The notes under the pieces were generated by a model. The model saw only the letters and a list, made by a program, of their open reading frames with translations, ran no database searches and was not told the origin of the DNA. The position numbers and the translations under genes were made by a program. 64,000 nucleotides of DNA. It comes from a virus. The DNA lies in the IMG/VR virus record IMGVR_UViG_3300045988_085064; one strand, given 5' to 3'. Below are positions 4,556 through 48,882 of this stretch, piece after piece; the first letter of the stretch is position 1, and every line of letters begins with the position of its first letter.

Positions 4556-4648
4556 GGCGGTGTCGGTTAATGGTAAGCCAGCGGTCTTATAAACCGTTTA
4601 GCTCTAGATTGGGGCAAAATCAGAGTTCGACCCTCTGCGCCGCTACCA
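4556..4648 (+). tRNA. atypical class-II (long variable arm) tRNA, formal anticodon UAU, CCA encoded
   Basis: Manual cloverleaf. Acceptor GGCGGTG/CGCCGCT, D arm GGTT-AATGGTA-AGCC, anticodon arm GCGGT-CTTATAA-ACCGT, 23-nt variable region, T arm CAGAG-TTCGACC-CTCTG, discriminator A plus CCA. Confidence 0.6.
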
Positions 4649-4678
4649 GATAAAATCCAAATCCAATGAGGTGATAAT

Positions 4679-4915
4679 ATGGAAAAATCTCCACTAAAAG
4701 CCATCCGCGCAAAATGCTTGGATTGTACTTGTGGTCAAGCAAGCGAAGTTAAAAATTGCCAAATCAAGCAATGTCCACTTTGGGAATATAGATTTGGCAA
4801 ATCAGGGCGTACCCGCTCAATGACCGACGAGCAGAGGCAAGCTGCGGCAGAACGGCTCAAATCAGCTCGTCTGGCAAAGAAATCATTGACTAATAATGAA
4901 GAAAATTCAGATTAG
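4679..4915 (+). CDS. small zinc-ribbon protein (CxxC...CxxxxC)
   Basis: 78-aa ORF with a GAGGTGA SD. N-terminus KAIRAKCLDCTCGQASEVKNCQIKQCPLWEYRFG. Confidence 0.6.
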   Translation: MEKSPLKAIRAKCLDCTCGQASEVKNCQIKQCPLWEYRFGKSGRTRSMTDEQRQAAAERLKSARLAKKSLTNNEENSD

Positions 4916-5052
4916 TTGATTAAGTAAGGTAAGTTGTAGGGTAAGTAGTTAAGAGGAATTTATTGATTATTAGTGTATGATTATTTTATTTGCTTGTTTA
5001 GGCTCGTTTGCGGCTGGCGTTGCAGTTGGGATGCTGATTGCAAAAACAATGC

Positions 5053-5081
5053 TTGACAAATAAAATCAAGTATGGTATAAT
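5053..5081 (+). promoter_or_regulatory. consensus promoter (P4) of the 1-kb tRNA/structured-RNA transcript
   Basis: TTGACA 5053-5058, 17-nt spacer, TGgTATAAT. Confidence 0.7.
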
Positions 5082-5092
5082 TGAAAATGTAA

Positions 5093-5267
5093 ATAATATC
5101 CGACCGGATTTGAAGATAACCGTCAAAATCTATATCACGCCTGTACTGAGGTCTGCGCAGAGTTTGAGAAGCGGCAGATACAGACTAGAGAATTGGGGTC
5201 GCGCCTGAGCGTGTTCCGTTAGCATGAGGACAAAAACATAACGGCAAAGGTGATATAAGGATATTAT
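5093..5267 (+). ncRNA. closed structured RNA domain D1 (unknown class)
   Basis: ATAATATCC (5093-5101) pairs with GGATATTAT (5259-5267). Nested inside it, TATATCAC (5131-5138) pairs with GTGATATA (5250-5257). No ORF. Confidence 0.35.
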
Positions 5268-5335
5268 GTAAACATCATTCACGGGTCAGTGCTAGAAATA
5301 GCTATGAGGTAGGAAGCTGGCTTGAGATAAAATAT

Positions 5336-5420
5336 GCGGGATTGGTGGAATTGGCAGACACATCTGATTCAAGCTCAGATGCCGTAAGGCGTAGGGATTC
5401 GAGTTCCCTATCCCGCACCA
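5336..5420 (+). tRNA. tRNA-Leu (anticodon CAA)
   Basis: Canonical class-II cloverleaf. Acceptor GCGGGAT/ATCCCGC, D region GTGGAATTGGCAGACAC, anticodon arm TCTGA-TTCAAGC-TCAGA, long variable arm, T arm AGGGA-TTCGAGT-TCCCT, ACCA end. Confidence 0.9.
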
Positions 5421-32788: not shown

Positions 32789-33829
32789 TTATGCTCTAGC
32801 TGTATATTTTAGATAAATCCAGCCATTACGATTATTAGAATATGCTTTGAGTAGCCCCCATCCATTTTGTTCTTCGACGATAGTATAGCCACCGCCATAT
32901 GGAATCGATTGTACAATACTGTAGCCAGTACCTGGTCCACTACGGACGTTTAACCCACTCTTAGCTGTAATTCGAACAACATAGCTAGTCTTGTTTGTAT
33001 TTGGTTGGGTATCAGGCTTCACCGCTTCCAGTGCAGCCCAAGTGAGCTTCCCACAGATGCCGTCGGAACTCAGACCTGACTTGCACTGGAAAGCTCGAAC
33101 AACACTATCCGTATAGTCGCCCCAAATACCATCAGCACCCCAAGGACTAAAACTATATCCAGCCTTGATGAGCAACTTTTGCATTCTTGCCACAGCCTCG
33201 CCTCTGTCGCCCTTACGAAGCGTCGGATGATTTGAGGATGTAGGAGTAGAAGGAGTTGCCGGAGTAGAACTACTGCCACCCATCTCTGCCGCGACATCCT
33301 TACGGAGCTTTGCAATATCATAGCCCAGGCCCAGGCCGTCCCAGAGGTGCTGCGGGTCCACATGGTCCGTATTGCTAAGACCCCGCCGGGTGATATCATA
33401 GTGTGTTTCTACTGCTGTATATGGGTCCCAGCCGTACTTCTTACACAGTTGCGCAATCAGCCAAACGGCATTTTTATATGTGGCCTTGGCGTAATTCTGC
33501 GCGGAGGCTAGGTCGGAAACAGTAAACCGAGCGCCTGACGTGTAATGAATCTGACGAGGTTCACCCATTTCAATGCCAAGATACTGAGCATTGCCAGGAC
33601 TACCAATGTGCCAGCATTTATAATTGTCTGGCATACAATGCAAAATAGTTGCATCATCCACCATATAATGAACTACATATTGTGAGCCATTATTTTGCCA
33701 ATAATTATATAGTGCCTTAGCACTTGGTTGTGGTGTACCAATAGAATGTAGCACAACGCCTCTAGGTGTAAATTTTTGAGCTGCCTTGTATCGACTGTTC
33801 CCAGTACAAATTGCTTCTGTAATGACCAT
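32789..33829 (-). CDS. endolysin: N-acetylmuramoyl-L-alanine amidase + PG_binding_1 + SH3-like domain
   Basis: Amidase_2-like VVLHSIG...CWHIGSPGNAQYLGIEM...HVDP. LRKGDRGEAVARMQKLLIKAGY matches a PG-binding repeat. The C-terminal LNVRSGPGTGYSIV is SH3-like. Confidence 0.9.
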   Translation of the reverse strand: MVITEAICTGNSRYKAAQKFTPRGVVLHSIGTPQPSAKALYNYWQNNGSQYVVHYMVDDATILHCMPDNYKCWHIGSPGNAQYLGIEMGEPRQIHYTSGARFTVSDLASAQNYAKATYKNAVWLIAQLCKKYGWDPYTAVETHYDITRRGLSNTDHVDPQHLWDGLGLGYDIAKLRKDVAAEMGGSSSTPATPSTPTSSNHPTLRKGDRGEAVARMQKLLIKAGYSFSPWGADGIWGDYTDSVVRAFQCKSGLSSDGICGKLTWAALEAVKPDTQPNTNKTSYVVRITAKSGLNVRSGPGTGYSIVQSIPYGGGYTIVEEQNGWGLLKAYSNNRNGWIYLKYTARA

Positions 33830-35599: not shown

Positions 35600-36553
35600 T
35601 TAAGATGCTGTACCACGAACATAAATTTTTAATGCGCCACTGACTGCTAAGTTGGTAGGCCGAACAATGGCAATTTGTCCTGGATTTTGCATTGATGCAC
35701 CAGTCCCGGAATACGAAACCGCCCATGCTCCGGCAGTTGTATTTGTGTTACACATAAATGAATATTGTATATTCGGCCATGTTGTAAATGTAATGGGATA
35801 GTTTGGGACCGTTACTGGGAGTACATATAAATTACTCCATTGTTCAGATGGATTGCCAGAGACAGATAGACTACCCCAACATTCCGCAATCCCATCTCTA
35901 TATTTCTTATAAGACCAAATGCCAGAAGACCCTTCTTCTATTAGGGATTCTACTTTTCTCCATCCTGGCTCAGCAAATGTGGAAGAACTTCTTCCATAGA
36001 ACATTCGATTATATTCATCAATATAAATATGTAAGGCATACTCAGCCTTAAAAATTACAAGAACGCCGTAGTTCCCGTGGGTGAACGAAAGGTTCTTGAA
36101 AATATCCGTCCCGACGGTCCGATAAATACCTGGAGATGTTGGATATGTCGTAACAGATTGCCAGCTTCCATATCGCTCACCAAATACCGTATGGATAAGG
36201 CCCTCTAGTGTTTGCGTTCCAGTACCACCACTTTCAAGGGGTACTGGATTAGTAAATGATGGTAAACAATCAAACAGAAGTTGTCCTGCTTGTTGCTCAA
36301 TAATACGCGATGTGAAATTACTTGTATTACCAGCATAGTGAAAATCAACATAGCCACCATTAGTAGTCTCATCCATGCCAAGTTCAATACCTGAATCAAA
36401 TGAATTAACCTTAACCTCGCCACTATTGTTAGGCATTGCCCCGTTTACAGAGGTAACCCCGCCTTCAACTTGAGAAACTTTCGTTTTTGGATATAATGTA
36501 TCATAATCCGACCCATTATATTGTTTCATTGTAATATTTTTATTTTCAGCCAT
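35600..36553 (-). CDS. tail fibre / receptor-binding protein
   Basis: N-terminus MKQYNGSDYDTLYPKT...ESGGTGTQT is typical of Firmicute phage fibres. Confidence 0.55.
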   Translation of the reverse strand: MAENKNITMKQYNGSDYDTLYPKTKVSQVEGGVTSVNGAMPNNSGEVKVNSFDSGIELGMDETTNGGYVDFHYAGNTSNFTSRIIEQQAGQLLFDCLPSFTNPVPLESGGTGTQTLEGLIHTVFGERYGSWQSVTTYPTSPGIYRTVGTDIFKNLSFTHGNYGVLVIFKAEYALHIYIDEYNRMFYGRSSSTFAEPGWRKVESLIEEGSSGIWSYKKYRDGIAECWGSLSVSGNPSEQWSNLYVLPVTVPNYPITFTTWPNIQYSFMCNTNTTAGAWAVSYSGTGASMQNPGQIAIVRPTNLAVSGALKIYVRGTAS

Positions 36554-37161: not shown

Positions 37162-38595
37162 TCATCCCTCCTTATAGTAAGGGTAGTATTTACTTGTTGT
37201 TATAGTCATTGAATTTGATTCTCCATAATCTGCCTTGATACTCTGTATCATATATTTATCGGATGCTGATTGATTTGACAGTGTGTATGATATAATATAG
37301 TTTACATCGAGCCATGGAATAGGAATACACCCAAGCGACATAGCATCATTTAGGCGGCATCTCCAGTATAATTCAATGTCGGCCCGTTGTTTTGCCAGAT
37401 TATCTGACATGATGTTATCATATTCACCACCGTATAGAGCAATCCGAATAATGCCAATATCGCCGTTAATATAAAATGGGCTATCAGGGTTTGTATCAGA
37501 AGCAATGGCCTGAGCCTGATTATGTCCAAGAAACAGCCATGTGTTATTGCTTTGATATACTGCAACATAATATTCATTGGCTTTGAGCATTTTGATTTGT
37601 ACTCCACTTTCATCTACAAGTTTATGAAAACCAGATATGTTGTTGATTCCAATAGCTACAGGGGAATTGATATCTGTTGTAAGCGTGAATCCTATCATCG
37701 TATTTGCTTTAATGGTTGTCTCTGTAATAGAGCCATATGCCAATCTAATATTGCCGCCGCTGACTGTTGCCGTAGATGAATAATGTTGAACATCATGACT
37801 ACGCCCATATACCTCTATATAGTTCTTGACGCTCTCAAAATCTGTGTCTACGCTCTCCGATGTAGTAATGCGGCTCAAAATATCATCATCTAATATAACA
37901 GGCGCATCATATCCAAACGGAATTTGCTCATAATGGAATACACCATCCACATCGAAATACATTTGATATTGAGGCAAGATATCTCGCAACTCAGATAGAA
38001 TATTGTATATAGTTCCGCCTTGATTTATAGTAATATCATATGGAACGTTTTGAATAGCTCCATCAGTATTGACACACTCAGATACAATATACTTGTTCAT
38101 ATTAGCCAGCTTTAACGTGGCAATAATAGCTTGGCGAACATTTGACCCAGTTGTAATCACCGTAGGAATACTAGGAAGATTACCGTTGCGTAAACCAGTC
38201 AATTTGGACATCATATCCAACCCTTGTAATTGCAATGTTCGACTTGCCCCATCATATGAAAACGACGGAGCATTGATTAAATACGTGCCCTGATTATACC
38301 ATTGAATTTCTTTAGTATGAATATTTTCATAGCCGATATATGGTTGAATATACTTATCTAGCCAAATTTTACCGCCAGGCTGAATATCAAATGAGCTGTT
38401 CTGAACGACTAAGTTTACAGTACATGAACGTCGCAAGTCGCTATTGGCATCTATGGACACCTCAAGTCCAATTAAATCTCCACTAATCTCATCGACGATA
38501 TTTAACTGAAAATTTAACAAATATAGCTTGATATATTTTTTGATATATGATTGCTTCAGGATAGAATAATCATTTGCCCCAATATTAAAGCCCAT
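37162..38595 (-). CDS. baseplate / tail-tip protein
   Basis: 477 aa. Call rests on position in the tail module. Confidence 0.5.
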   Translation of the reverse strand: MGFNIGANDYSILKQSYIKKYIKLYLLNFQLNIVDEISGDLIGLEVSIDANSDLRRSCTVNLVVQNSSFDIQPGGKIWLDKYIQPYIGYENIHTKEIQWYNQGTYLINAPSFSYDGASRTLQLQGLDMMSKLTGLRNGNLPSIPTVITTGSNVRQAIIATLKLANMNKYIVSECVNTDGAIQNVPYDITINQGGTIYNILSELRDILPQYQMYFDVDGVFHYEQIPFGYDAPVILDDDILSRITTSESVDTDFESVKNYIEVYGRSHDVQHYSSTATVSGGNIRLAYGSITETTIKANTMIGFTLTTDINSPVAIGINNISGFHKLVDESGVQIKMLKANEYYVAVYQSNNTWLFLGHNQAQAIASDTNPDSPFYINGDIGIIRIALYGGEYDNIMSDNLAKQRADIELYWRCRLNDAMSLGCIPIPWLDVNYIISYTLSNQSASDKYMIQSIKADYGESNSMTITTSKYYPYYKEG

Positions 38596-38597
38596 GT

Positions 38598-39506
38598 TTA
38601 ATCCTCCGTTGGAATCATATTTGTATCATATAAGTCGGACTTAGAATCCATAGAACCAATCTCTGTCCAATCAGCAGACACATCCATAATACCCATTCCA
38701 TATTCATTACTATACGTCACAGATGGGTTACCCGTAATATATACGAGCCAAGCATTACCATTCCAGTCCTTGATGATTTTCGGCTCTTTATTTGTCAAAT
38801 AATCAAGTAATGCCGTCTTTTCTTGCTGAATGGCATTTCTATCGATTTTACCTGTTTTCTCAAATGATTTGTTTATAATCTTACCACTAATATTCCCCGT
38901 CTCGTAATTCAACAGCCCATTGCTAACCACAACTGGCATACGCCGCCCAAATGGGGTAAATACACCGACCTGTTGGACGCGGTCATTTGAATTGTAGGCT
39001 ACACCATACTTGAATTTATAGATTGTATTAGCATCACAAATATATATACCCTTAAAATTTGATACTACATCATCCGTAATATAATTTCCTTCCACGCCTT
39101 CCATTACTGGAACAAACGCATACTCATATTCTTTAAAGTTGACGTTTAGCCTATCAATATAAGAAAATGATAAATCGTCCAGACTATTGACAGTAGTCTC
39201 ATATAGCGTAACCCATTCAAAAGCGCCCTTCTCCCGACGCTTGACTCGAACAGATGTAATCTGCGAACCAATCTCAGCCAAAGAGCCGCCATTCAGATTC
39301 CCATTAAATCCAGCGTTGATAATTGTAGAGAAATCCCAAGATGCTGGGATTGTATCGTCAAAATCCATGGAACCGTTAGAACTTAAATTGAAATGATTAA
39401 CTACACCACTTGAAATCTTAGTTCGTTGAATATTCGTAATTCCAGTCGGAGATGGGTCTAAAGCGTTGACATCTCCGCAAAAATTATATCCAATCAATCC
39501 AATCAT
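38598..39506 (-). CDS. tail protein (distal-tail-like)
   Basis: ATG 39506 follows AAGGAGGTGG. Sequence KDWNGNAWLVYITGNPSV. Confidence 0.5.
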   Translation of the reverse strand: MIGLIGYNFCGDVNALDPSPTGITNIQRTKISSGVVNHFNLSSNGSMDFDDTIPASWDFSTIINAGFNGNLNGGSLAEIGSQITSVRVKRREKGAFEWVTLYETTVNSLDDLSFSYIDRLNVNFKEYEYAFVPVMEGVEGNYITDDVVSNFKGIYICDANTIYKFKYGVAYNSNDRVQQVGVFTPFGRRMPVVVSNGLLNYETGNISGKIINKSFEKTGKIDRNAIQQEKTALLDYLTNKEPKIIKDWNGNAWLVYITGNPSVTYSNEYGMGIMDVSADWTEIGSMDSKSDLYDTNMIPTED

Positions 39507-39522
39507 ATTAGACCACCTCCTT

Positions 39523-40593
39523 TTAGGTTGTCTTACCGATGGTAACATCATATATATTATTTCGTTTCTGTATAAAAATACACAGATTAGTTGTGCTCGT
39601 TACGTTTGACACCTCGTCACCTTTTATAGCGTAATAATATGCAACCCCAGCATTCCTTGCCGTTAGCTCAGGCCATATCGTATTGCCAGTATGCCGTAAC
39701 GCTACAGTCACAATATCCCCTGATACTGTTGAAAATGTTATTAAGTCGCCATTTGTATCAAAGTCATAACCCCAAATTCTTGCCGTAAAATCATCAGTAA
39801 CCGTATATCCTTCATTGAATGCTACGTAGTCGCCATCACCACGTAGGTCAATGGCCGTATTATCAATATAAATAGGGTCTTTTGGAGTCTCACCATCAAT
39901 GACTGTTACATTTGATTGGAACACAATATATCCATTTTCACAATCATTGACCAACACAATGTTTGAAAATACTTCTGGAATATCAAATGCTGTCAAAAAA
40001 TGAACTTTGCCAGTATCAACTTGAACGCCAGCATCAGATACCCCAATACATTCAATATAATATTTGGTATTATTTCTAAACCCAGCGAATGTATAGCTCA
40101 TCGTATATGGCAATGTCTTATCTTGAATATATATTTCATTACTGGTTGATAACAAAATTTGAGCATCGCTATATAAATTAAATATGCAACTATTCAATGC
40201 GTCCTTCTCTTCTTGATTATACATCACAGAGAATGAATATGATGCATTATTTACTTTTGCTCCACTTGAGATATTGTTAAACCCGAATGTCGCCGCAGTC
40301 AAACATTGAAAAGATATCGTATTTGAAGCAATAGATATGTCGCCAGTTGCGTTGATAGTTTGAATATAAGCTAGATATTGCGTTCCATTAGTCAACGTTC
40401 CAGATGGTAACATATGCTCATACCTAAACGTGGTGGTTTCTACACTATATACAATAGCCAACGTATCAGCATTTTGTATTGTCAATTTGTTTTTTACGAC
40501 TTGGTCCCCACCAATAACCGTAAATACAAACGTGTGTGATGTGGATGCGTCAAATGGCATTGTTGAATATAAAATTGGTTGAGTTAAAGCCAT
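39523..40593 (-). CDS. tail protein with repeated beta-sandwich (FN3-like) modules
   Basis: 356 aa. Call rests on position and composition. Confidence 0.45.
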   Translation of the reverse strand: MALTQPILYSTMPFDASTSHTFVFTVIGGDQVVKNKLTIQNADTLAIVYSVETTTFRYEHMLPSGTLTNGTQYLAYIQTINATGDISIASNTISFQCLTAATFGFNNISSGAKVNNASYSFSVMYNQEEKDALNSCIFNLYSDAQILLSTSNEIYIQDKTLPYTMSYTFAGFRNNTKYYIECIGVSDAGVQVDTGKVHFLTAFDIPEVFSNIVLVNDCENGYIVFQSNVTVIDGETPKDPIYIDNTAIDLRGDGDYVAFNEGYTVTDDFTARIWGYDFDTNGDLITFSTVSGDIVTVALRHTGNTIWPELTARNAGVAYYYAIKGDEVSNVTSTTNLCIFIQKRNNIYDVTIGKTT

Positions 40594-40636
40594 TTCTTCA
40601 CCTCCAGTATAATTAACTAAAACAAATATTTTTTAA

Positions 40637-40735
40637 TTACTTTAGATTTTCCCTTACGGCCTCCCGGTATTTTGCGGGTACCTGGGCCAGGGTGATGCGC
40701 CCCAGCCGCACCTGCAAGGTCAAAAACTGCACCAT
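40637..40735 (-). CDS. small protein (32 aa) in high-GC cassette
   Basis: MVQFLTLQVRLGRITLAQVPAKYREAVRENLK. TAAATG coupling to the upstream small ORF. Below the track cutoff. Confidence 0.45.
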   Translation of the reverse strand: MVQFLTLQVRLGRITLAQVPAKYREAVRENLK

Positions 40736-40909
40736 TTACTCCGTGCCTCCCATCACAAGCTCCAGCATCGCCGCCTCCAGCGCCTCCAGTCGCTCCTCCG
40801 CCGTCGGCCCCGGCTCCGGCTGCGCGGCCAGCATGGCGTTGTATTCCGCCTCTTCTTCCGGCGTCATGTTCCGGATGACCCCGTTGTCGCTGATCCTCAA
40901 TTTGCTCAC
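40736..40909 (-). CDS. small protein (57 aa) in high-GC cassette
   Basis: A GTG overlaps the fibre stop. ...MTPEEEAEYNAMLAAQPEPGPTAEERLEALEAAMLELVMGGTE. The inner ATG is also possible. Confidence 0.45.
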   Translation of the reverse strand: MSKLRISDNGVIRNMTPEEEAEYNAMLAAQPEPGPTAEERLEALEAAMLELVMGGTE

Positions 40910-42147
40910 CCCATTTTGTAAATGTTGACGGTCGTCCCGCTGATGATTTTGACGCCGGATGTTTGGGAGTAGATGTATATTTTGTTTGCTTTATATTCTG
41001 CATTTTGTGGGACGTTTTGGGAGTTTTGTGTCCTGTCCGACACCGAGTGGATCGTCCCTCCCAACACAAAAAAGGTCCACCTGGATTGTATGACCGAGTA
41101 TTTGTATTGTCCGGTGACCGTCCCCACCATCATACCGGTGTATGTGTTTCCTTCCGACCCGATCCTGACGTTTACAACAGGTGTTGTAACGTTGGCGGTC
41201 AAATCTCCGTTGTTCGGTACAATCGTCTCACAAAAATACAGCTTGCCCGGCTCAATCGTCAGATCGTTTATTGCCGACATGGTCGTCCCGTCTGCGGTCC
41301 AGGTATACACCAGCTCGATGCCGCTTGAGCTTCCACCGCCCCCCGGCGCGGTCCACAGCTTGCCGTCTGTGTCCATGCCCACGGTCTTGGTCATGTCATC
41401 TGTTTTACTATCAGGTCCAGGAATTTTTTGTAACACACGCGAAACATTGCCGTTAGACATAACGGTGAACTGGGATATGCTATTATTAAAAGTTAGTCCA
41501 GAGAAGAATGCAACCTGCGGTCCTTGTGCCCCAGCAAGATTGTGCATGATAGTAACGTACTGCGCAACCACCCGTTTCCCGGCCTGTATCGCAGCCCAGA
41601 TTTCTGTCGTAGTTTTGTTGCAAACATACGGAGATGCCGTTGTGCCGATCCCGGTAATCATGCAAACGAGAACCCCTGGACTATGGTTTGCCACATAATC
41701 TGCAATACCACCCGAATTGGCAACATTATTATCTGGATCATATACAGATTTAAGCATATCACCAGCTCCAGCTGCCGATAATGCGTCAGAAACAGCCTTT
41801 TCAGATGGAACTTTTGTTGTAGATACACCTAGTGTCTGAGACATATCACTTGTACTAATAGCCCCAATATCAGATGCATTCAGCACCACAGCACCAGTTT
41901 TTGAATTGACGCTAGTAACTGGGGCGGATGTTAATGGCGTAATCGTCTTATCACCAAGCGTAATCACGCCATTATCAATCTTAGCATCAGTAATACCATA
42001 ACCAACTATTGTGGTAGGTTTATTTTTTACATTATCCCATTCAACATCACTAGCTGTGCCGCCTCCTGATTTTACGGCGGCAATTAATTCATCCATTTTC
42101 CCTACATAGGATGAATTTTTTAGTAAGTCGATAGTAGTATCTGCCAT
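40906..42147 (-). CDS. mosaic tail fibre (low-GC N-terminal anchor, high-GC C-terminal domain)
   Basis: ATG 42147 follows GGAGGG. Contains an SVNSKTGAVVL repeat. Composition switches near 41700. Confidence 0.65.
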   Translation of the reverse strand: MADTTIDLLKNSSYVGKMDELIAAVKSGGGTASDVEWDNVKNKPTTIVGYGITDAKIDNGVITLGDKTITPLTSAPVTSVNSKTGAVVLNASDIGAISTSDMSQTLGVSTTKVPSEKAVSDALSAAGAGDMLKSVYDPDNNVANSGGIADYVANHSPGVLVCMITGIGTTASPYVCNKTTTEIWAAIQAGKRVVAQYVTIMHNLAGAQGPQVAFFSGLTFNNSISQFTVMSNGNVSRVLQKIPGPDSKTDDMTKTVGMDTDGKLWTAPGGGGSSSGIELVYTWTADGTTMSAINDLTIEPGKLYFCETIVPNNGDLTANVTTPVVNVRIGSEGNTYTGMMVGTVTGQYKYSVIQSRWTFFVLGGTIHSVSDRTQNSQNVPQNAEYKANKIYIYSQTSGVKIISGTTVNIYKMG

Positions 42148-42165
42148 ATATCCCTCCAAGTAATT

Positions 42166-42993
42166 TTACTCACTCCATACTAAGTTTAGACTATTATCTT
42201 CATTTTTTGTCAGTTTATAATTTATCCCTATATCATTTGGGGTTAATACAACTACGCCTGTTTTACCATTAACTGAATCAACATTGCCGCCAGTAGATAT
42301 TGTCACATCACCAGTCTGCCCGTTTACAGATGTTACAGGATATGGAGGTGGATTACTTATACTATATTGTTTAACATTATCAACATTCCCAAGCCCAACA
42401 TCAGTTTTCCCAATCACCACCGTGCCAGTCTTGCTATTAACGCTCTGAACCGGAGCGGCATTCTTAGCAGCTGTAATATCTACATATTCACTATCGTTCT
42501 CAAGTTGACTCGTTTTAGTCGGAACAGCGGATTCCGTGATATAGCCACTATCATTGGTAAGGTCTGACGTTTTATTAGGAATTTTTGTCCCAGACGGCAA
42601 CGCTCCAACATCTGCCGCTGTCAAAACCACATCTCCTGTTTTGCCATTAACCGACTGCACCCCAGATTCACCAGTGCTTGTATCTGCAAATATGAGCGTA
42701 AACGCTTGAGACATATTACCAAATGGAACAAATACTCTATAGGCATTGCCAACAATAGGCGTACCACCATAATAAGCAATATTGCTATATGTGTTGCCAT
42801 TTATTTTCATCGTACAGACGCTAGTTGATATCTCTGTAACTATGCCACTATATATCACGGCATTATTCTTTGCCGATTTCTCTGCTAAAATTTCAATAGC
42901 ATCTAGTAGTTCATTTGCTTCGTTAATGTTGTACACCTCTATTCTTATAAAAATCCGGGTCAACACCGTGGTATCAACCCGGATATATATCAA
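42166..42993 (-). CDS. tail fibre protein with SVNGKTG repeats
   Basis: VQSVNGKTGDVVL, VQSVNSKTGTVVI, VTSVNGQTGDVTI and VDSVNGKTGVVVL. TTG start overlaps the TMP stop. Confidence 0.55.
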   Translation of the reverse strand: MIYIRVDTTVLTRIFIRIEVYNINEANELLDAIEILAEKSAKNNAVIYSGIVTEISTSVCTMKINGNTYSNIAYYGGTPIVGNAYRVFVPFGNMSQAFTLIFADTSTGESGVQSVNGKTGDVVLTAADVGALPSGTKIPNKTSDLTNDSGYITESAVPTKTSQLENDSEYVDITAAKNAAPVQSVNSKTGTVVIGKTDVGLGNVDNVKQYSISNPPPYPVTSVNGQTGDVTISTGGNVDSVNGKTGVVVLTPNDIGINYKLTKNEDNSLNLVWSE

Positions 42994-45900
42994 CGTCTGC
43001 TAAAAGCTCTCTGGTATGCTAATGCTTTTACATTTTCTACAAATTTCCTTGCATCTGCCGCAGTCTGAATATTCGGGAATGACATAGTAGTATTATTAAA
43101 TTCCATACTCATACCCGCTGGATTTCTATTTGATATAGCAATACCTTTATTATCTATAACAGACCTACCCAGATTCCAAAGATTCTTTGTGATATTGCTT
43201 GGAATAATTCCATCACCAGAGTTAAGTACCCTAAGTTCTGGGCCATTTTCACCAACCATATGAAGCCCACTTGTGCTAGATAATGTTCCATTTGCATATC
43301 CAGTAATAGAACTTAGTTTCTTATTGATTTCGTCCTGTTGCTTGATTACCTTGGCAAGTTCAGCGTCGCGTTTTGCCTCAATCACAGATTTCTTTGCTTC
43401 AAGGCTCTTGCTACGATTGTATTCATTTAGAGCTTCTTGCGCCGTGGCAATTGCATCATAATCTTGAGCGTATTGATATCGTCCATCCTTAAAAGTATAC
43501 ACCCGCTTAGAACGAGCCTCTGCTAGGTTCTTTAGCAACCCCTCATATTTAATTTGGTCTTCTAACTTATTGTTTGTATCTTCAAGCGCCTTAATCTCTG
43601 CATTATACTTATCATTGATTGCGCTCTGAGTCTCTTTGAGGGCTTTAAGCTGCGCATTCAAATTATCCTTTATCTGGGATTTTTCCCATTTGTATATCTC
43701 CTCTTGATATTTCCAATATTCCTTTTGATACTCTTGCCGCCCTTGGAAATATTTTTTATTCATCTCTTCAAGCTCTTTATAATATTGAGCTTCAGAAATT
43801 TCATCCATTGCCAAAGCGTGTTTCTTGGCGTCTAACCAAGCATCAAATTCATCTTTCCAAATATCTTTAGAACTCTTACTAGAACCTGAAGATGAAGATG
43901 AACTTGAACCAGATGAGCCAGAACTACTAGCAGAAGAATAAGACGAAGTAGGATATGAGCCACTTGTTTCCCTGCTTTTAGACGTTTTAGGGATTTTGCC
44001 CTTAGCCGTAATAGGCGTTAGTCTCGAAACAAGGTCGAACGAAACTCTTGGGATGTATCCAAGTCTATGTGCTTGAATCGCGCCATGTAATTTTTTCCCA
44101 TTTAGAATAGCTCTAGTCTCTTCTGCCGTATACACATAATCTCCATCGTGCATCTGAGTAATTGTCGGCATACCATTACCAGCGATATATGCCTCATTAC
44201 CACTTTGGATAAGCTCAGGGCCTTCCTCATTTACAAGAGATGGCCCTTCTTTTGTTCTACCGCCATCTGCATTGACTTGGTATCTTGTGTCGCCAAGATT
44301 CTGAATGTTATTCTTTGCGTTTTGCGCTTGATTGGACACTCTAAGTAGTTGATCGCCAAGAGACCTAACCTGACTCGTAATACCCGACAGAGACGTACTA
44401 TTCAAATCTTCCAACTCAGATGTCATCTCTGCCGTTGCAGATTCCGTCTCACCAGCTTTTTTGATAATATCGTCTATGCTCTCAGGTACATTTGTCAATC
44501 TTACATTATCCGCATCTTCCAAAGAACGCTTCATGTCTAAGATGGCATCCTTAGAATAACCAACCTCAGATAACCCCTCTACAACCTTAGTAAAATCGAT
44601 TTCATTAACGCCATTTTTGACTGTAACAATAGAACTATCAAGATTGCTAAATGCAGATATGAGCGCATCAATGTTCCAATCAACATCCGCTCCATATACC
44701 TTGCCAGCCTCAATAAGTGCCCAAAGCTGAGATGTTGTCAGCCCCATAGAATTGGCAAGTTGGTCAAAATCAGTAATATTATAGGATATAGAGTCTCCCG
44801 TTGTATCTAATGTCGCGCCAACAAGCTCTCCAGCATCTGCCAATTCTTGCATAACTGTAACAAATCCAAGCCCGCCCGATTCAGCGTCAGAATACAAGGT
44901 TGACAATCTATCCATAATACCGGCCATATACTCAGCCTTATCAGAAGCGTTGTCAAATCTAGTTAAAATGTCATCCCCGACAAGTTGAGATAAGGCATTT
45001 CTGAATGTTAGAGAGCCAATTTGCCCAGCTTCAAATTCGTCATTAAGAGTTGAGAACACAGATGCAAGCCCCTTAAAAGCATCATCATAGTCGCCCGTTT
45101 GGGACATGGCATTGTCAAAATTCGTTTTAGCATCTGTCGCGCCTTGAATCATGTCGGCCCATCTTAGAACCGTTTCAGCAGACGATTTGAATTTAGAATC
45201 CATATCGCTGGTCGCATCGCCTATACTACCAGCTAGATCGCTAAACCTCTTATATAGCTCATAGACTTCATCCTTGGTAATAGATAATCTTTGAGCAATA
45301 GTATCAGCAACATCAGAAAACGACCGCCCCTCAGAATTAGCAACCGTTTGTACCACTACCAATTGCTGATAACTATTATATTCATCCATCAAAGCATCAG
45401 ATACTTGATTCCCAGCATCTATCTGTTGCTTGATGATTTCATAATATTGTTTGCCGCTTTGAATCGCATTGTCAACATCTTCGGCCCAGCGCTTAGTTTG
45501 TGCTCTGGGACTATCAAATATATTCTTAGACATCCCAGAATAGGTATATAAAGATTTGTAATATTCAGCATTGGACTTTGCGGCCTCGTTCTGAGATACA
45601 GTATTTTCCTTAATGGCAATTCCATATTTCTTAGCGGCTTTGGCAAGAGCCTCGGTATCTGCCTCATAATCGCCTGTTACCTCAATAAGGTCAATCAATT
45701 TGGCCTTTTGAGCAATTATAGTTTGGCTATTTGTAGCGGACGCTATCGTAACAGTGATCTCGGCATCAGCAATATCCCATAGAGCATCAGACATATCTTT
45801 GTATACCTTAGTATTATCAATACCAGATATATTAATATTTGAATTCTTGGTGCCAACAGATACACCTTCAACCCTATCCTTGCTAAGGATTGACGCGCCT

Positions 45901-46833
45901 TCAGCAATTTGAGCTTTCTGTTGGATATCTAGCAACTTTTCATAATATGCAATGACGTGCTCTAGGTATTCCGCTTCTTTATCAATATCAGCGGTCCTGT
46001 CCTCCCATGGCGTTGCATTGATTTCCTGAAGACTGGACTTAGCATCATCGTATTTGCCGCTAATTTCTTGGACTTTATCTCCAAGTTCATTATATTCATC
46101 AATATGCTCTTGGATGGATTTATTTGCTTCGGCAATAAGCCCAGATATGCCTCTAAACACCTCGGCTAATCCAGCCACAGCCACAGCAACAGCAGCTATA
46201 ATTACCAATGTTTTCGGAGCTAATAATGTTGCAAGTAAGCCACCGCCACCAGCAGTTGCCGCTAATGTGGCACTCAATTTAGCCATAGCCGCAATTATAG
46301 TGCCAACAATGCCAACTAATGCAGTTAATGCCGCAGCAAATCCACCTACACGGGCGATAACAGCCACAACATCATTATTGGCAAAACTAAGCATTGTATG
46401 CCCAGCATCAAGGAAACCGCTTACTAAATCCTTTGATAAGACACGATTGGAAAAATCCTCAAATTCAGCCTTGAGCAGTTGTTCTTTAGCTCCAAGACTT
46501 TCCATATACCGCTCATTTTCTTTCATGGCCGAGCCATTGGATTCTAGTGCTGTATTAGTTGCATTGATAGCTGTTTGGTAATTCTTTAAAAGAGCGGCTA
46601 GATTTTGAGTTTGAGTGGTTCCTGCTTGCTGTTGCAGATAATACATCTGCTCATTCTTAGTTAATGTCGGCCAGATTTTTGCTACATCAGTCAATACATC
46701 ATATAGACTGCGAATCTGACCTTCGTCATCTTTTATCGCAATTTCGTGTTCTTGATACCATTTTGTAAGCGCCTTACCAGTGTCAGATGATTCATCTACG
46801 ACTTGGTTTAAGCGGGCTTGTACAGTGATAAGT
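42990..46833 (-). CDS. tape measure protein, exon 3
   Basis: The frame is open from 46832 (after an in-frame TGA at 46835-46833). Sequence LITVQARLNQ..., TM/Gly-Ala region, long coiled coils. Confidence 0.85.
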
Positions 46834-48385
46834 CAATGTATTAACTCGGATTCGTCACATCCGATAAGGAGAATTTATTTATAAAATCAGTTAACAAGAC
46901 ATCGTGCTCGTCTTTTTCTAACACCCAAAATGGAACCCGCAATAACGGAATGTTATTATCTTCACAGTATTTAGTTTTTATCTCGTCATTCTCTTTCACT
47001 GTCTCATATTTCTTTTCTGCTTGTTCTCTATATTTTTTACCACCAAATGAAACTGGCCTATAATGTCCTATTCCATCAACCTCAATGCAAGCATTAAAAT
47101 CTGTTAAATAAAAATCAAATGGTAATGCTCTTTTATTGACACATCTATCAAATGTTTTTTCTTTTTCATATAGTATATTATTATTATTTAGCCACAGCTC
47201 TACTTTTGCAGAAATAGCAGATTGTTTCATTCTACATTCATTGCATTGATACTTTCCATCTGCGAAATGATATGCATCAACCTTAAAGTCGTTGCCACAA
47301 GAGCATTGAACAATAAATGGCGATTTTACACCATTGTATTCTTGATTATAAATGGTACAATCCCAATCTTTTAGAAAAGCATATATCCTTAAATTATCAA
47401 GAGCGTATGGGTTTGATTTGCCGAATCTCTCAAATGAACACCCGTTATATAGCGAGGTAACACTAATAAGCCCACGATAACCGTTTTTGTCCTGAACAAC
47501 AACATTATCTTTTGACCTTATCGTTGAATCATTCAAAATACACAATCCAGATTTCCTAGCAATTTCATGATATTTGTTAGAATCAATATGGTTTGTATTG
47601 ACTTCTCCCCTACTTCTTTTTATCTTGTAACATCTATTGCAGCATTTATCATCTTTTGAATAATATTTATGCCATGTTGATGTAAATTCACCGCCACATA
47701 TTCCGCACTTAAACATGATTGGCATATCAATGTTTGATATATCTTCTTTTTTTGTTAATAAAATAGTACCATACTCATTTGTCTTTTTGATATATAACAT
47801 CATATTGTCATAAAAATATGGGTTTTTTGTGCTAAATGTATGCTCTACATCCACAGAGTAACGTTTTTTATATGTTAAAGTGTGTTTACAAGTGTGGTAG
47901 CTTCTTTTGTATTTATATCCATCAGAATCAACACAGTCATATTTATAATCTACGCCACGCGCAATATCTTCCAATAACGTTAATCCAACTTGTTCAAATA
48001 ATTTCCTTGTTTCTTCTATTGTTATTTTTTTCGACATAAATTCTCCTTCTTGCATTTTCATGCAATGTTTAGACTATTTCTTCATCTCATAGTATTGAGA
48101 GTCTATCATTTCGATTTAAGGGAATCTCACCCACAAGCTTAGACGTACTTGCCCTACTCCTATTGTGATATAGTCACCAATGGGATAGTCGTTTGACTCA
48201 CTCCTATTCGGAGCTTTGCGCCCAAACATCCATTATAAAATACTTAGGTGTTTCCACCATATATCATCTCTATCGTTTTTAATACTTTCGCACATTCACG
48301 CTTGTCAATCTTTCAAGACTACGTTGTAGTGATAGAGCTTTAGGAATTACTGGGTTTAGATAGATATCATGAGGCATATTACTAT
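46834..48385 (-). mobile_element. group-I-like intron 2 (1552 nt) with endonuclease ORF
   Basis: 5' exon GAGGU pairs with internal GCCUC (48375-48371). The last nt is G (46834). Shares core blocks and covarying helices with intron 1. Confidence 0.7.
46841..48037 (-). CDS. intron-encoded homing-endonuclease-like protein (zinc ribbons + PD-(D/E)XK/Vsr-like C-terminal domain)
   Basis: ATG 48037 follows AAGGAG. Several CxxC...CxxC modules. C-terminal LPFDFYLTDFNACIEVDGIGHY matches the nuclease-type motif. Confidence 0.55.
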   Translation of the reverse strand: MSKKITIEETRKLFEQVGLTLLEDIARGVDYKYDCVDSDGYKYKRSYHTCKHTLTYKKRYSVDVEHTFSTKNPYFYDNMMLYIKKTNEYGTILLTKKEDISNIDMPIMFKCGICGGEFTSTWHKYYSKDDKCCNRCYKIKRSRGEVNTNHIDSNKYHEIARKSGLCILNDSTIRSKDNVVVQDKNGYRGLISVTSLYNGCSFERFGKSNPYALDNLRIYAFLKDWDCTIYNQEYNGVKSPFIVQCSCGNDFKVDAYHFADGKYQCNECRMKQSAISAKVELWLNNNNILYEKEKTFDRCVNKRALPFDFYLTDFNACIEVDGIGHYRPVSFGGKKYREQAEKKYETVKENDEIKTKYCEDNNIPLLRVPFWVLEKDEHDVLLTDFINKFSLSDVTNPS

Positions 48386-48774
48386 ACCTCTAGGCACTTA
48401 TTGTTTGCCCTACTTCCCTTGGCGGCGTTCCTCGTGATTTCAGTCATAGCCGTAAGCATACCAAGGGATTGTTCAAATGTATTATTGCCTGTTGCCATAG
48501 CAGCAGACATATTACCTAGGTTCTGTGCTAATTGCCCAGATGAAACAGCATAATTATTTGATACAGCATTAACCGCATCGATAATATGCTCAGCATTATC
48601 CGCTTCAATATTGAACGCCTTCATCTGCGCAACAATAAATGATGCGCTATCTGCCGCAGAAACCGATTCATCCGCTACGTTCTGAAAAGTAGTCGCAACT
48701 TTAGCTAGAGTTGCCGAGTCAGAATCATTAAAGCTGTTTTTACGGAATTGAGTTGCGGCCTCAACCATCTCTGA
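48386..48774 (-). CDS. tape measure protein, exon 2 (TP901-type core)
   Basis: SEMVEAATQFRKN...NVADE...AVSSGQLAQNLGNMSAAMATGN...TEITRNAAKG. The 5' splice site could alternatively lie at 48410|48409. Confidence 0.8.
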
Positions 48775-48795
48775 CGGTTATAAATTATCCAATGC

Positions 48796-48882
48796 TTACT
48801 TGCCCTTCCAGCAAGCAACTGTATATGCAATCATAAATGTAAACCAGCCAACAATGAAAATTGTAGCGTAGAAATCTCCCAT
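48796..48882 (-). CDS. 28-aa hydrophobic micro-ORF inside intron 1
   Basis: TAATG coupling to the upstream ORF. MGDFYATIFIVGWFTFMIAYTVACWKGK. Confidence 0.3.
   Translation of the reverse strand: MGDFYATIFIVGWFTFMIAYTVACWKGK

What the first reader, a model, noticed from the sequence alone, without database searches (positions are those of the whole stretch)
40637..41720. High-GC cassette replaces the C-terminal half of a tail fibre and brings two small downstream genes
From about 41700 down to 40637 the composition jumps. By eye it is clearly GC-rich against an AT-rich background, and it produces spurious Gly/Ala/Arg-rich antisense ORFs.

The switch falls inside the fibre gene 40906-42147, after the N-terminal roughly 150 aa. 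That N-terminal part holds the anchor plus the SVNSKTG repeat and ...YDPDNNVANSGGIADYV. The entire distal domain is therefore foreign.

The cassette continues through two tightly coupled small ORFs missed by the track. They are 40736-40909 (…MTPEEEAEYNAMLAAQPEPGPTAEERLEALEAAMLELVMGGTE) and 40637-40735 (MVQFLTLQVRLGRITLAQVPAKYREAVRENLK). It ends abruptly at AT-rich sequence.

This looks like a receptor-binding-domain swap, plus accessory or chaperone genes, acquired from a phage of a much higher-GC host. That points to a recent host-range change or a broad host range.
Basis: partly seen in the sequence, partly recalled or inferred. Interest (0 to 1): 0.7.

Follow-up and report, generated by a model that had tools for sequence, protein, structure and literature searches.

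The report
Swapped phage tail-fibre tip cassette
An AT-rich gut phage carries a tail-fibre tip and two tiny helper-like genes that are about 91% identical in DNA to those of much more GC-rich temperate phages. This is a clean but fairly ordinary case of phages trading host-recognition parts, most likely inside a shared host.

Summary
The GC step is real. Window 40637-41720 is 52.7% GC against a 39.1% window mean (z about 4.5, the highest in the window). GC3 jumps inside the fibre gene near aa 155.

The foreign part is not one block. The fibre (40906-42147, minus strand) has four pieces:
- a lineage-specific anchor N (aa 1-157);
- a middle module M, 84% nt-identical to a roughly 46%-GC phage;
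- a conserved Gly-rich hinge;
- a lectin-like beta-sandwich head D.

Hinge, D, a 54-aa ORF and a 32-aa ORF (CD1375 family) together span 751 bp. They are 91% nt-identical to the end of the tail module of 33-kb temperate siphophages of 61% GC.

Sister genomes of the window phage carry two other D alleles at the same site. Each has a counterpart in 61-62%-GC temperate phages. The hinge and the small ORFs stay conserved and probably serve as homology arms.

The endolysin is also shared with these phages (72% aa), and the phage's two tRNAs read AT-rich codons. I therefore favour a shared high-GC host over a recent host jump. The host itself was not identified.

This is a new member of a known kind: exchange of a receptor-binding protein plus accessory genes.

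The parts
41677..42147 (-). Fibre module N (aa 1-157): lineage-specific anchor with PVTSVNSKTG-type linker repeats. It is native in composition.
   Evidence: GC 40%, GC3 0.24. The 5' part is 90% nt-identical to the AT-rich relative L033. The same N module is joined to many different C-termini in P0069-P0108.
41407..41676 (-). Fibre module M (aa 158-247): a self-contained globular alpha/beta insert of intermediate GC.
   Evidence: GC3 0.46. Window 41344-41674 is 84.3% nt-identical to L035, a 56-kb phage contig whose fetched 17-kb locus is 45.5% GC. It is 83% aa-identical to P0060 and 41% to the M of the 449-aa fibres of 33-kb phages; the 360-aa forms lack M. AF2 pLDDT is about 87. All close relatives carry it.
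41332..41406 (-). Hinge KTDDMTKTVGMDTDGKLWTAPGGGG (aa 248-272): conserved junction and the 5' homology arm of the cassette.
   Evidence: It is shared by fibres carrying all three head alleles and several different N-termini. Homology to L035 and to L024 overlaps here. Exact matches of 19-31 bp occur between most non-cognate allele pairs. AF2 gives it low confidence, as for a linker.
40906..41331 (-). Fibre module D (aa 273-413 plus stop): distal beta-sandwich head, the exchangeable putative receptor-binding domain (allele D1).
   Evidence: It lies within the 751-bp tract that is 91.3% nt-identical to L024/L025/L026 and 90.5% to L029, all 61-62% GC. Non-homologous alleles replace it in sister genomes L027 (D2) and L036 (D3), whose flanks are 93-96% identical. 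pN/pS is 0.20 against L024. AF2 pLDDT is about 90. The best Foldseek matches are weak ones to galectin/ConA-like sandwiches.
40736..40900 (-). ORF54: a 54-aa acidic, probably helical protein translationally coupled to the fibre. It is a putative fibre accessory/chaperone protein and the 3' homology arm.
   Evidence: GC 66%, GC3 0.87. The TTG start aligns with the ATG of L024. The family has at least 142 clusters of 51-94 aa, mostly 53-64 aa. It lies downstream of the fibre in every related phage contig examined that carries this cassette. No Pfam, NCBIfam or PHROG hit. pN/pS is 0.36.
40637..40735 (-). ORF32: a 32-aa CD1375-family protein whose start abuts the ORF54 stop (TAAATG). Its last 6 codons plus the stop (40637-40655) are AT-rich and lie beyond the 3' recombination junction at 40656/40655.
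   Evidence: NF040910 scores 26.1 bits against a cutoff of 22.5; phrog_1382, 3e-7. Homologues lie after the tail-fibre genes in Streptococcus prophages. The first 26 codons differ from L024 by 3 synonymous and 0 non-synonymous changes. The junction sequence was read, and sister genomes L027, L031 and L036 encode the same VRENLK end.
32789..33829 (-). Context: the endolysin (Amidase_2 + PG_binding_1 + SH3_3), shared with the same pool of GC-richer phages.
   Evidence: It is 72% aa-identical to the endolysins of L024 and L035 over the full length, against 34% for the best catalogued phage. Window 33191-33845 is 82% nt-identical to L035.
4556..5420 (+). Context: tRNA-Ile(TAT) at 4556-4648 and tRNA-Leu(CAA) at 5336-5420. 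They decode AT-rich codons that are common in this phage and rare in the GC-rich phages.
   Evidence: ARAGORN and Rfam. ATA is 13.1 and TTG 14.3 per 1000 codons in the window bulk, against 1.9 and 2.2 in L024.

Best explanation
The region is the distal two-thirds of a modular tail-fibre (receptor-binding) gene plus two small co-transcribed genes. The genome is an AT-rich siphophage-like genome of about 75-84 kb whose terminase is closest to that of Enterocloster phage PMBT24.

Anatomy. The fibre is built like beads on a string:
- a lineage-specific anchor N;
- an optional globular module M;
- a conserved Gly-rich hinge (...DGKLWTAPGGGG);
- a distal lectin-like beta-sandwich head D.

Origin. 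Hinge + D + ORF54 + ORF32 came from the gene pool of 61-62%-GC temperate siphophages. There the same four elements close the tail module, just before the lysis genes. M came from, or is shared with, a third phage type of about 46% GC.

Mechanism (inferred). The cassette entered the ancestor of this sub-lineage once, because all relatives share the same 3' junction inside ORF32. Since then only the head, plus the first ~20 codons of ORF54, has been replaced repeatedly. The replacement is by homologous recombination between two conserved arms, the hinge and the small ORFs. It presumably happens when the phage infects cells that carry such prophages or are co-infected by such phages.

Function (inferred). 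D sets receptor specificity. ORF54 and the CD1375-family ORF32 are fibre accessory proteins, most likely folding/assembly helpers. They move with the fibre tip and not with the lysis genes.

Host (inferred). Recombination needs both phages in one cell, and the endolysin and holin are also shared. The AT-rich phage and the GC-rich temperate phages therefore most likely infect the same or closely related high-GC gut Clostridia. The GC contrast then reflects phage-lineage composition rather than a host jump.

What is shown: the composition step, the module boundaries, the nucleotide identities, the allelic replacement in sister genomes, and CD1375-family membership. What is inferred: the recombination mechanism, the chaperone role, receptor binding and the shared host.
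For: - Composition and GC3 steps.
- D1: window 40656-41406 is 91.3% nt-identical over 751 bp to L024, a 32.6-kb contig whose fetched 21-kb locus is 61.1% GC. It carries an integrase and the gene order fibre, 54 aa, 33 aa, endolysin, holin.
- D2: sister genome L027 (40% GC) has flanks 93-96% identical to the window, but 40838-41336 is replaced by another head. That head is 86.9% nt-identical to L030, of the 61-62%-GC type.
- D3: sister genome L036 carries a third head, 80.8% nt-identical to the 62%-GC temperate phage L038.
- Arms: the small-ORF arm is 95-96% identical across alleles. Exact matches between non-cognate alleles are 19-31 bp in the hinge (most pairs) and 21-69 bp in the small-ORF arm.
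- M: 84.3% nt-identical to L035 and 83% aa-identical to P0060.
- N: occurs with many other C-termini.
- The same junctions appear in independent assemblies from different samples.
- ORF32 is CD1375 family. Purifying selection acts on D, ORF54 and ORF32.
- Literature: short genes downstream of the receptor-binding gene raised Avidocin-CD activity (PMC4453579), and PtsHN10N improved the solubility of the receptor-binding protein (PMC9615553).
- Shared host: endolysin 72% aa-identical to L024 and L035 against 34% for the best catalogued phage. The amidase part is 82% and the holin 70% nt-identical to L035. The tRNAs read ATA and TTG. PMBT24 is virulent, 32.1% GC, and also encodes an XerD-type recombinase (PMC11035940).
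- Fold: D is a confident beta-sandwich. The top BFVD match is annotated as a tail fibre protein; most other BFVD matches are unannotated.
Against: - No host was identified for any of the phages.
- Endolysins are themselves mobile, so sharing one does not prove a shared host.
- The direction of transfer rests on composition and on canonical gene context. It does not rest on a rooted phylogeny.
- The shared segment shows no amelioration: 55.9% against 56.0% GC, with 24 GC-to-AT and 23 AT-to-GC differences. Its age is therefore unconstrained, and 8% divergence means L024 is not the direct donor.
- The chaperone role of ORF54 and ORF32 has no direct support here. Neither matches any known chaperone family. 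The co-variation of the ORF54 N-terminus with the head holds for D2 but not D3, so it looks like linkage.
- The Foldseek matches for D are weak (TM about 0.4, E about 1e-3).
- The window encodes a XerC/D-type tyrosine recombinase at 6494-7375, so a temperate or plasmid-prophage lifestyle is not excluded.
Confidence: 0.7

Rival explanations
1. The cassette was captured from a phage of a different, much higher-GC host. It marks a recent host-range change or a broad host range of the AT-rich phage.
For: The cassette is 91% nt-identical to 61%-GC temperate phages, whose hosts should be of similar GC. The window phage is 39% GC and carries a tyrosine recombinase. If it is temperate, its own host might be low-GC. 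The cassette shows no amelioration, which is compatible with recency.
Against: - The same 3' junction and the same M module occur in all sister genomes, which have diverged by 4-7%. The entry is therefore not very recent.
- Three head alleles have been exchanged independently with the GC-rich pool, which implies sustained contact.
- The endolysin, wall-binding domains included, and the holin are shared with the same pool.
- The phage's tRNAs fit an AT-rich phage on a GC-rich host.
- The nearest cultured relative is a virulent phage well below its host's GC and also has XerD (PMC11035940).
Confidence: 0.2
2. Reverse direction. The cassette is native to the AT-rich lineage, or to a third unsampled lineage, and was donated to the GC-rich temperate phages.
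For: The shared segment is 56% GC, below the 61% of the temperate phages. It contains locally AT-rich stretches in both lineages.
Against: - GC3 of 0.64-0.87 in the cassette is far from the 0.24-0.33 of the AT-rich genome and close to the 0.73-0.80 of the same genes in L024.
- In the temperate phages the cassette sits at the canonical end of the tail module, in at least two different temperate phage types (L024-like and L038-like) plus the L035 type.
- Their protein clusters are much larger: 241-498 members for the L024 capsid, tail and endolysin proteins, against 32 for the window's endolysin.
Confidence: 0.05
3. The two small ORFs are not fibre helpers. They belong functionally to the lysis module, or are small virion or regulatory proteins, and were merely dragged along as flanking DNA.
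For: In the temperate phages and in Streptococcus prophages they lie between the fibre genes and the holin/endolysin genes. They match no chaperone family. CD1375-family function is untested.
Against: - In the AT-rich lineage they stay intact, and ORF32 shows only synonymous changes. They sit next to the fibre and about 5-7 kb from the holin and endolysin.
- Neither is hydrophobic enough to be a holin (sequence).
- Short genes at this position improved receptor-binding-protein activity or solubility in C. difficile systems (PMC4453579, PMC9615553).
Confidence: 0.2
4. Artefact. The step is an assembly chimera, or a by-product of Gly/Ala-rich amino-acid content.
For: Metagenomic contigs can be chimeric. 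The hinge and ORF54 are rich in Gly, Ala and Glu.
Against: The same junctions are present in independent assemblies from other samples: SRR17827929, SRR28082630 and ERZ27287079. The jump is strongest at third codon positions.
Confidence: 0.01

Closest known systems
Tail-fibre plus cognate-chaperone host-recognition modules shared between unrelated phages of one host (Alteromonas phages A5 and V22; PMC10579305). Also the classical P2/Mu/P1 fibre + Tfa exchange and T-even gp37/gp38 exchange (own knowledge).
   Same: A distal fibre segment and the small gene(s) immediately downstream move together between otherwise unrelated phage lineages. The N-terminal anchor stays lineage-specific.
   Different: The accessory genes here are much smaller (54 and 32 aa) and match none of those chaperone families. 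Donor and recipient genomes differ by about 22 GC points. Chaperone activity was not tested here.
C. difficile diffocin / prophage receptor-binding locus (rtbM/ptsM followed by the short genes ptsN and ptsO), as used in Avidocin-CD (PMC4453579; PtsHN10N in PMC9615553).
   Same: A receptor-binding gene in a Clostridia phage-tail system is followed by two short genes. Carrying those genes along improves the activity or solubility of the transplanted receptor-binding protein. ORF32 belongs to the family named after C. difficile CD1375.
   Different: I could not verify from the papers that CD1375 is ptsN/ptsO or their diffocin equivalent. The receptor-binding protein is unrelated in sequence. Here the exchange happened in nature, not by engineering.
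Streptococcus prophage tail ends (T12, Javan phages): tail fibre, DUF1366, a small CD1375-like ORF, holin, lysin.
   Same: A CD1375-like ORF of 40-55 aa lies directly after the fibre-associated genes.
   Different: The partner there is a 115-aa DUF1366 protein, not the 54-aa family. Identity to ORF32 is only 41-55% over about 29 aa.
Conserved-linker-mediated swapping of receptor-binding heads in phages of Gram-positives: the collagen-like repeats flanking VR2 in S. thermophilus phages, and lactococcal head-domain swaps (own knowledge, not checked here).
   Same: A short conserved Gly-rich linker precedes a variable head and acts as the recombination point. Some donor fibres here also carry collagen repeats (PF01391 in P0028 and others).
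   Different: The second arm here is provided by downstream genes, not by a second repeat inside the fibre gene.
Enterocloster phage PMBT24 (virulent, 99,962 bp, 32.1% GC; PMC11035940).
   Same: It is the nearest cultured relative by terminase (45% aa). It has a similar replication gene set, including DnaE-type polymerase, DnaB, primase, RecJ-like exonuclease and XerD. Its genome is AT-rich relative to a host of about 49% GC (own knowledge).
   Different: The relationship is distant. No tRNAs were reported in PMBT24. Its fibre locus was not compared here.

Membership tests
CD1375 family protein (NCBIfam NF040910 / Pfam PF23792 CD1375-like) | HMM score at or above the curated cutoff | tested here: met
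   ORF32 scores 26.1 bits against a cutoff of 22.5 with NF040910. The L024 homologue scores 26.7. The Pfam PF23792 model gave no hit for ORF32 itself; it gave sub-threshold hits only for the Streptococcus homologues.
CD1375 family protein (NCBIfam NF040910 / Pfam PF23792 CD1375-like) | Very small protein (about 30-50 aa) encoded just downstream of tail-fibre or receptor-binding genes of Firmicutes phages or tailocins | tested here: met
   ORF32 is 32 aa. It lies downstream of the fibre in the window and in all related loci. The context is the same in T12 and Javan393 and in F. prausnitzii phage FP01 (PMC13432834).
Known tail-fibre assembly chaperones (Caudo_TAP/Tfa, T4 gp38, gp57A, intramolecular S74 chaperone) | Sequence membership in one of these families | tested here: not met
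   ORF54 and ORF32 gave no Pfam hit up to E = 10, and no NCBIfam hit other than CD1375. The fibre has no C-terminal peptidase_S74.
Known tail-fibre assembly chaperones (Caudo_TAP/Tfa, T4 gp38, gp57A, intramolecular S74 chaperone) | Encoded immediately downstream of the fibre and co-inherited with its distal domain | tested here: met
   The starts are overlapping or abutting (GTGA / TAAATG). The genes were co-transferred within one 751-bp tract.
Known tail-fibre assembly chaperones (Caudo_TAP/Tfa, T4 gp38, gp57A, intramolecular S74 chaperone) | Required for, or improves, folding or trimerisation of the fibre | not testable with these tools
   This needs co-expression experiments or multimer modelling. 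Only analogy from PMC4453579 and PMC9615553 is available.
Modular phage receptor-binding tail fibre | Lies in the tail gene block, with an N-terminus conserved within the lineage and a C-terminus replaced among near-identical genomes | tested here: met
   It lies between the tape-measure gene and the DUF5048 tail protein gene. The N module is conserved with many different C-termini. D is replaced in L027 and L036, whose flanks are 93-96% identical.
Modular phage receptor-binding tail fibre | Distal domain with a receptor-binding (often lectin-like) fold | tested here: inconclusive
   The AF2 model of D is a confident beta-sandwich (pLDDT about 90). The best PDB matches are galectin/ConA-like, but TM is about 0.4 and E about 1e-3. 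Among BFVD matches, rank 1 is annotated as a tail fibre protein and most others are unannotated.
Modular phage receptor-binding tail fibre | Homotrimer that binds a host surface receptor | not testable with these tools
   No multimer modelling or binding assay is available.
Diversity-generating retroelement target (variable C-terminus of a fibre) | A template repeat matching the variable region, plus a nearby reverse transcriptase | tested here: not met
   No direct or inverted repeat anywhere in the window involves 40637-41720. The large ORFs that were scanned contain no reverse transcriptase.
Invertible tail-fibre segment (Mu Gin / P1 Cin type) | Inverted repeats flanking the variable segment, alternative C-termini in opposite orientation, and an adjacent invertase | tested here: not met
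   No inverted repeats flank the cassette. The antisense ORFs are low-complexity by-products of high GC. The only recombinase found is a tyrosine recombinase 34 kb away.
Horizontally acquired segment | Compositional outlier, high nucleotide identity to an otherwise unrelated lineage, and alternative content in sister genomes | tested here: met
   composition; identity; sister genomes. Besides the cassette, only the endolysin region matches between the window and L024 or L038.

The most novel reading that the evidence does not exclude
AT-rich PMBT24-like phages of about 78 kb prey on high-GC (about 60%) gut Clostridia and use the resident temperate phages as a library of receptor-binding heads. 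The conserved hinge and the ORF54/CD1375 pair form a standard 'socket' shared by several unrelated phage types. Any head can be plugged into it by homologous recombination. The two mini-proteins are a generic, head-independent maturation pair for this class of fibres. If so, sharing of the cassette and the endolysin could assign hosts to an uncultured phage family. It would also supply a ready-made design rule for retargeting phages of gut Clostridia.
Probability: 0.3. Interest if true: 0.6.

Novelty: new member of a known kind. Interest (0 to 1): 0.4.

Why it matters
- Exchange of fibre tips together with their small downstream genes is a well-known route of phage host-range evolution. The principle is therefore not new.
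- The case is unusually well resolved. Module boundaries are mapped to the nucleotide, three alleles each have a counterpart in the donor pool, and the conserved arms are identified.
- It links phage lineages that differ by about 22 GC points. GC mismatch is routinely used to argue for different hosts. Here the shared endolysin, holin and fibre parts argue the other way, which is a useful caution for composition-based host prediction in gut viromes.
- It gives a natural co-transfer argument that the uncharacterised CD1375 family and the unnamed 54-aa family belong functionally to the fibre rather than to the lysis genes.
- It defines junctions (the hinge and ORF54) that could be used to engineer chimeric fibres for phages of gut Clostridia.

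Tried and rejected
- Megablast of 38000-46000, and of the donor-type locus L024, against 50,697 catalogued phages: no match.
- tblastn of the C-terminal 261 aa against the same collection: no match. The N-terminal part hit only the linker motif in Streptomyces phages.
- Pfam and NCBIfam on the fibre and on ORF54: nothing significant.
- PDB sequence search: only a sub-threshold hit of the linker repeat to FtbO (9j1l; E = 0.007).
- Host identification failed by every route tried:
  - Cluster look-ups returned no organism names apart from 'MAG TPA Caudoviricetes sp.' for the window endolysin and for one member of the L024 tape-measure cluster.
  - The capsid protein of L024 has no close cultured relative; the best is 45%.
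- A diversity-generating retroelement and an invertible segment were both rejected, because no repeats involve the region.
- Amelioration test: no GC-to-AT bias in the window copy, so it gives no dating or direction signal.
- Co-variation of the ORF54 N-terminus with the head allele: it is seen for D2 in both lineages, but D3 carries the D1-type N-terminus. This is linkage rather than demonstrated specificity.
- Promoter and terminator scan of 39500-43200: counts are at chance level, and no signal lies within the cassette.
- My pN/pS value for module M was computed on a misaligned pair and should be ignored.
Full report
**Observation**

The composition step is real and large. Window 40637-41720 is 52.7% GC. 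The window as a whole is 39.1%, and 1084-bp windows have a standard deviation of 3.0%. This is the highest such window; the runner-up, at 46.3%, covers the endolysin gene. A two-breakpoint likelihood segmentation puts the GC-rich tract at 40651-41692.

The change is in codon usage. GC3 is 0.24 in fibre residues 1-157, 0.46 in residues 158-247, 0.76 in the hinge and 0.64 in the distal domain. It is 0.87 in the 54-aa ORF and 0.73 in the 32-aa ORF. The neighbouring genes are at 0.29-0.33.

The fibre gene starts at ATG 42147 and stops at 40906-40908 on the minus strand. Both small ORFs are present and tightly coupled to it. By alignment with homologues, the first small ORF starts at TTG 40900, giving 54 aa.

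**Genomic setting**

The minus strand carries a structural block in this order:
- a tape-measure gene (42990-46694);
- a repeat-rich gene of about 256-275 aa (42166-42993);
- the fibre;
- the two small ORFs;
- genes of 356 aa, 317 aa and 477 aa (the last with DUF5048);
- further tail genes, a holin and the endolysin (32789-33829).

The plus strand encodes a DnaE-type polymerase, DnaB, a primase, a RecJ-like exonuclease, a RecD2-like helicase, ribonucleotide reductase and a XerC/D-type recombinase.

The terminase is 45% identical to that of Enterocloster phage PMBT24. PMBT24 is a virulent siphophage of 32.1% GC that also encodes XerD (PMC11035940). Relatives of the window phage occur on contigs of 75-84 kb at about 40% GC.

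**Anatomy of the fibre**

A database search with the C-terminal 261 aa, followed by inspection of the hits, shows a beads-on-a-string protein.

- **N (aa 1-157).** N is specific to the AT-rich lineage. There it is joined to many alternative C-termini through PVTSVNxKTG-type linkers.
- **M (aa 158-247).** M is a compact alpha/beta module with AF2 pLDDT of about 87. It is present in all close relatives. It is optional in the fibres of 33-kb temperate phages: the 449-aa forms have a 41%-identical M and the 360-aa forms lack it.
- **Hinge (aa 248-272).** The hinge KTDxMTxxVGxDxDGKLWTAPGGGG precedes the head.
- **D (aa 273-413).** D is a confidently predicted beta-sandwich. It has only weak structural matches, to galectin/ConA-like lectins (TM about 0.4).

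**Origins at the DNA level**

Window 40656-41406 covers the hinge, D, ORF54 and most of ORF32. It is 91.3% identical over 751 bp to L024/L025/L026 and 90.5% identical to L029. These are temperate siphophage contigs of up to about 33 kb, and their fetched loci are 61-62% GC. In them the same genes close the tail module, immediately before the endolysin and holin, and an integrase lies further downstream.

Window 41344-41674, which is M, is 84.3% identical to L035. L035 is a 56-kb phage contig whose fetched 17-kb locus is 45.5% GC.

The two homologies overlap only in the hinge. The 3' end of the homology is sharp. After ...CGGGAGGCCGT the window continues with the AT-rich AAGGGAAAATCTAAAGTAA, encoding ...VRENLK*. 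The donors continue with CCGGGCCGCCCTGAACGCATAA, encoding ...VRAALNA*. All sister genomes encode the same VRENLK end.

**Allelic replacement**

Sister genome L027 has flanks 93-96% identical to the window. It lacks homology across 40838-41336, where it carries a different head, D2. D2 is 86.9% nt-identical to the head of L030, of the 33-kb GC-rich phage family.

Sister genome L036 carries a third head, D3. D3 is 80.8% nt-identical to that of L038, a different temperate phage of 43.5 kb and 62% GC with a collagen-containing fibre.

Across alleles, the small-ORF region remains 95-96% identical. Between non-cognate alleles there are exact matches of 19-31 bp in the hinge (in most pairs) and 21-69 bp in the small ORFs.

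This pattern is what repeated homologous cassette exchange between two conserved arms would leave. That mechanism is my inference.

**The small ORFs**

ORF32 passes the curated threshold of the CD1375 family. It has homologues right after the tail-fibre genes of Streptococcus prophages and of a Faecalibacterium phage (PMC13432834).

ORF54 has no named family. It belongs to a set of at least 142 protein clusters of 51-94 aa, mostly 53-64 aa.

Both are under purifying selection relative to L024. ORF32 shows 3 synonymous and 0 non-synonymous differences, and ORF54 has pN/pS of 0.36.

In the temperate phages their position cannot tell whether they belong to the fibre or to the lysis genes. In the AT-rich lineage they have moved with the fibre tip, to a site about 5-7 kb from the holin and endolysin. 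This argues for a fibre-linked role.

In C. difficile systems, short genes at this position increase the activity or solubility of the receptor-binding protein (PMC4453579, PMC9615553). I therefore favour an assembly or accessory function, but it is untested here. Neither ORF matches any known chaperone family.

**Same host or host jump?**

Only three other stretches of the window match the GC-richer phages at the nucleotide level.

- The endolysin gene matches all three phages compared. At the protein level it is 72% identical to the endolysins of L024 and L035 over the full length, including the PG_binding_1 and SH3_3 wall-binding domains. The best match in the catalogued phage collection is only 34%. 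Its amidase part is 82% nt-identical to L035.
- The holin is 70% nt-identical to L035.
- Module M matches L035, as described above.

The window's two tRNAs read ATA and TTG. These codons are about seven times more frequent in the window than in L024. That is the expected pattern when an AT-rich phage compensates on a GC-rich host; this expectation is established knowledge and was not tested here.

PMBT24 shows that this phage group can sit well below its host's GC. PMBT24 is 32.1% GC (PMC11035940), and its host, E. bolteae, is about 49% GC (own knowledge).

Recombination needs both genomes in one cell, and three alleles have been exchanged. A shared or closely related host is therefore the more economical reading.

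It is not proven, because no host could be identified. The only hit in species-representative genomes was a hinge-only match in a 61.5%-GC Aristaeellaceae MAG contig.

**Direction and age**

The cassette's GC3 resembles that of the temperate phages. Its gene context there is canonical and is found in several phage types. The protein clusters of those phages are far larger. These three points favour transfer from the GC-rich pool into the AT-rich lineage.

The shared segment has the same GC in both lineages, 55.9% against 56.0%, and shows no directional substitution bias. There is thus no amelioration signal. The 8% divergence means the sampled phages are relatives of the donor, not the donor itself.

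**Alternatives excluded**

- A diversity-generating retroelement and an invertible segment are excluded, because no repeats involve the region.
- An assembly chimera is excluded, because the same junctions occur in independent samples.
- An amino-acid composition effect is excluded by the GC3 data.

**Verdict**

It needs two corrections:
- The acquisition is nested: M, and then hinge-D-ORF54-ORF32, with ongoing head replacement.
- A shared high-GC host is more likely than a recent host shift.

This is a well-resolved new example of a known phenomenon. It involves protein modules that no family model names (M, D and ORF54), and one that has a family model but no known function (ORF32, CD1375 family).

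Noticed in passing
window 42990-48768 (minus strand): The tape-measure gene appears split. ORF 48382-48768 (128 aa) matches tape-measure profile phrog_4211 at positions 657-765, and ORF 42990-46694 (1234 aa) matches positions 815-1700. Between them, ORF 46841-48061 encodes an HNH/homing endonuclease (phrog_559, 1e-39). The relative L027 has the same three-gene layout. No Rfam intron model matches 46500-48900. It may be a free-standing homing endonuclease insertion or an unrecognised intron.
   Followed up: partly
window 3721-28074 (plus strand): At least eight copies of a 41-nt element containing a near-consensus promoter (AAATAAT-CTTGACAAAT-N-TATAAT) lie in front of early and replication genes. 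A second family has three copies with the promoter followed by a conserved GGAGGTTGTT segment (10477, 18414, 24664). This is probably the phage's early promoter set, read by the host sigma-70-type polymerase.
   Followed up: no
window 42943-42984 (minus strand): A 14-bp-stem hairpin followed by a T-run lies directly after the tape-measure stop codon and just upstream of the likely true start of the repeat-rich gene (256 aa in relatives). It may be a terminator or attenuator separating the tape-measure gene from the fibre block. The first ~19 codons of the listed 275-aa ORF are probably not translated.
   Followed up: no
window 6494-7375 (plus strand): A XerC/D-type tyrosine recombinase (Phage_integrase + Phage_int_SAM_1) sits in a genome that otherwise looks like a self-replicating, virulent-type phage. 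PMBT24, described as strictly lytic, also has one (PMC11035940). Its role is unclear: dimer resolution, a plasmid-prophage state or integration.
   Followed up: partly
window 40637-42993 relative to 37162-40593: The gene order is unusual. The fibre block (repeat protein, fibre, two small ORFs) lies directly after the tape-measure gene and before the putative distal-tail and DUF5048 tail proteins. Further fibre-like genes (35600-36553, 34429-35241) lie near the lysis genes. A more distant relative, L033, has a 157-aa fibre in the same slot, followed by ORFs of 148, 87 and 55 aa with moderately raised GC3 (0.40-0.55). The slot is therefore a general hot spot for fibre cassettes.
   Followed up: partly
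L035 9475-9993; L033 4521-4784: Longer proteins downstream of other fibres share the N-terminal motif of ORF54 (MKIxxxxVIRDMT...EE...). In L035 that motif is fused to a CBM_5_12 carbohydrate-binding domain. The similarity is weak (pairwise E about 1e-3). It hints that the ORF54 N-terminus is a reusable fibre-docking peptide.
   Followed up: partly
window 32789-33829: The exact endolysin sequence is in NCBI nr as DAZ67894.1, 'MAG TPA: N acetylmuramidase [Caudoviricetes sp.]'. This phage, or a near-identical one, has therefore already been deposited as an uncultured, unstudied viral genome. The related contigs found here come from gut and other metagenome assemblies.
   Followed up: no
window 41840-41940 (fibre aa 70-105): The PVTSVNSKTG linker region gives a sub-threshold PDB sequence hit to FtbO (entry 9j1l; E = 0.007). 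It also gives weak tblastn hits to minor tail proteins of Streptomyces phages. It is a widespread fibre linker motif rather than a lineage marker.
   Followed up: no
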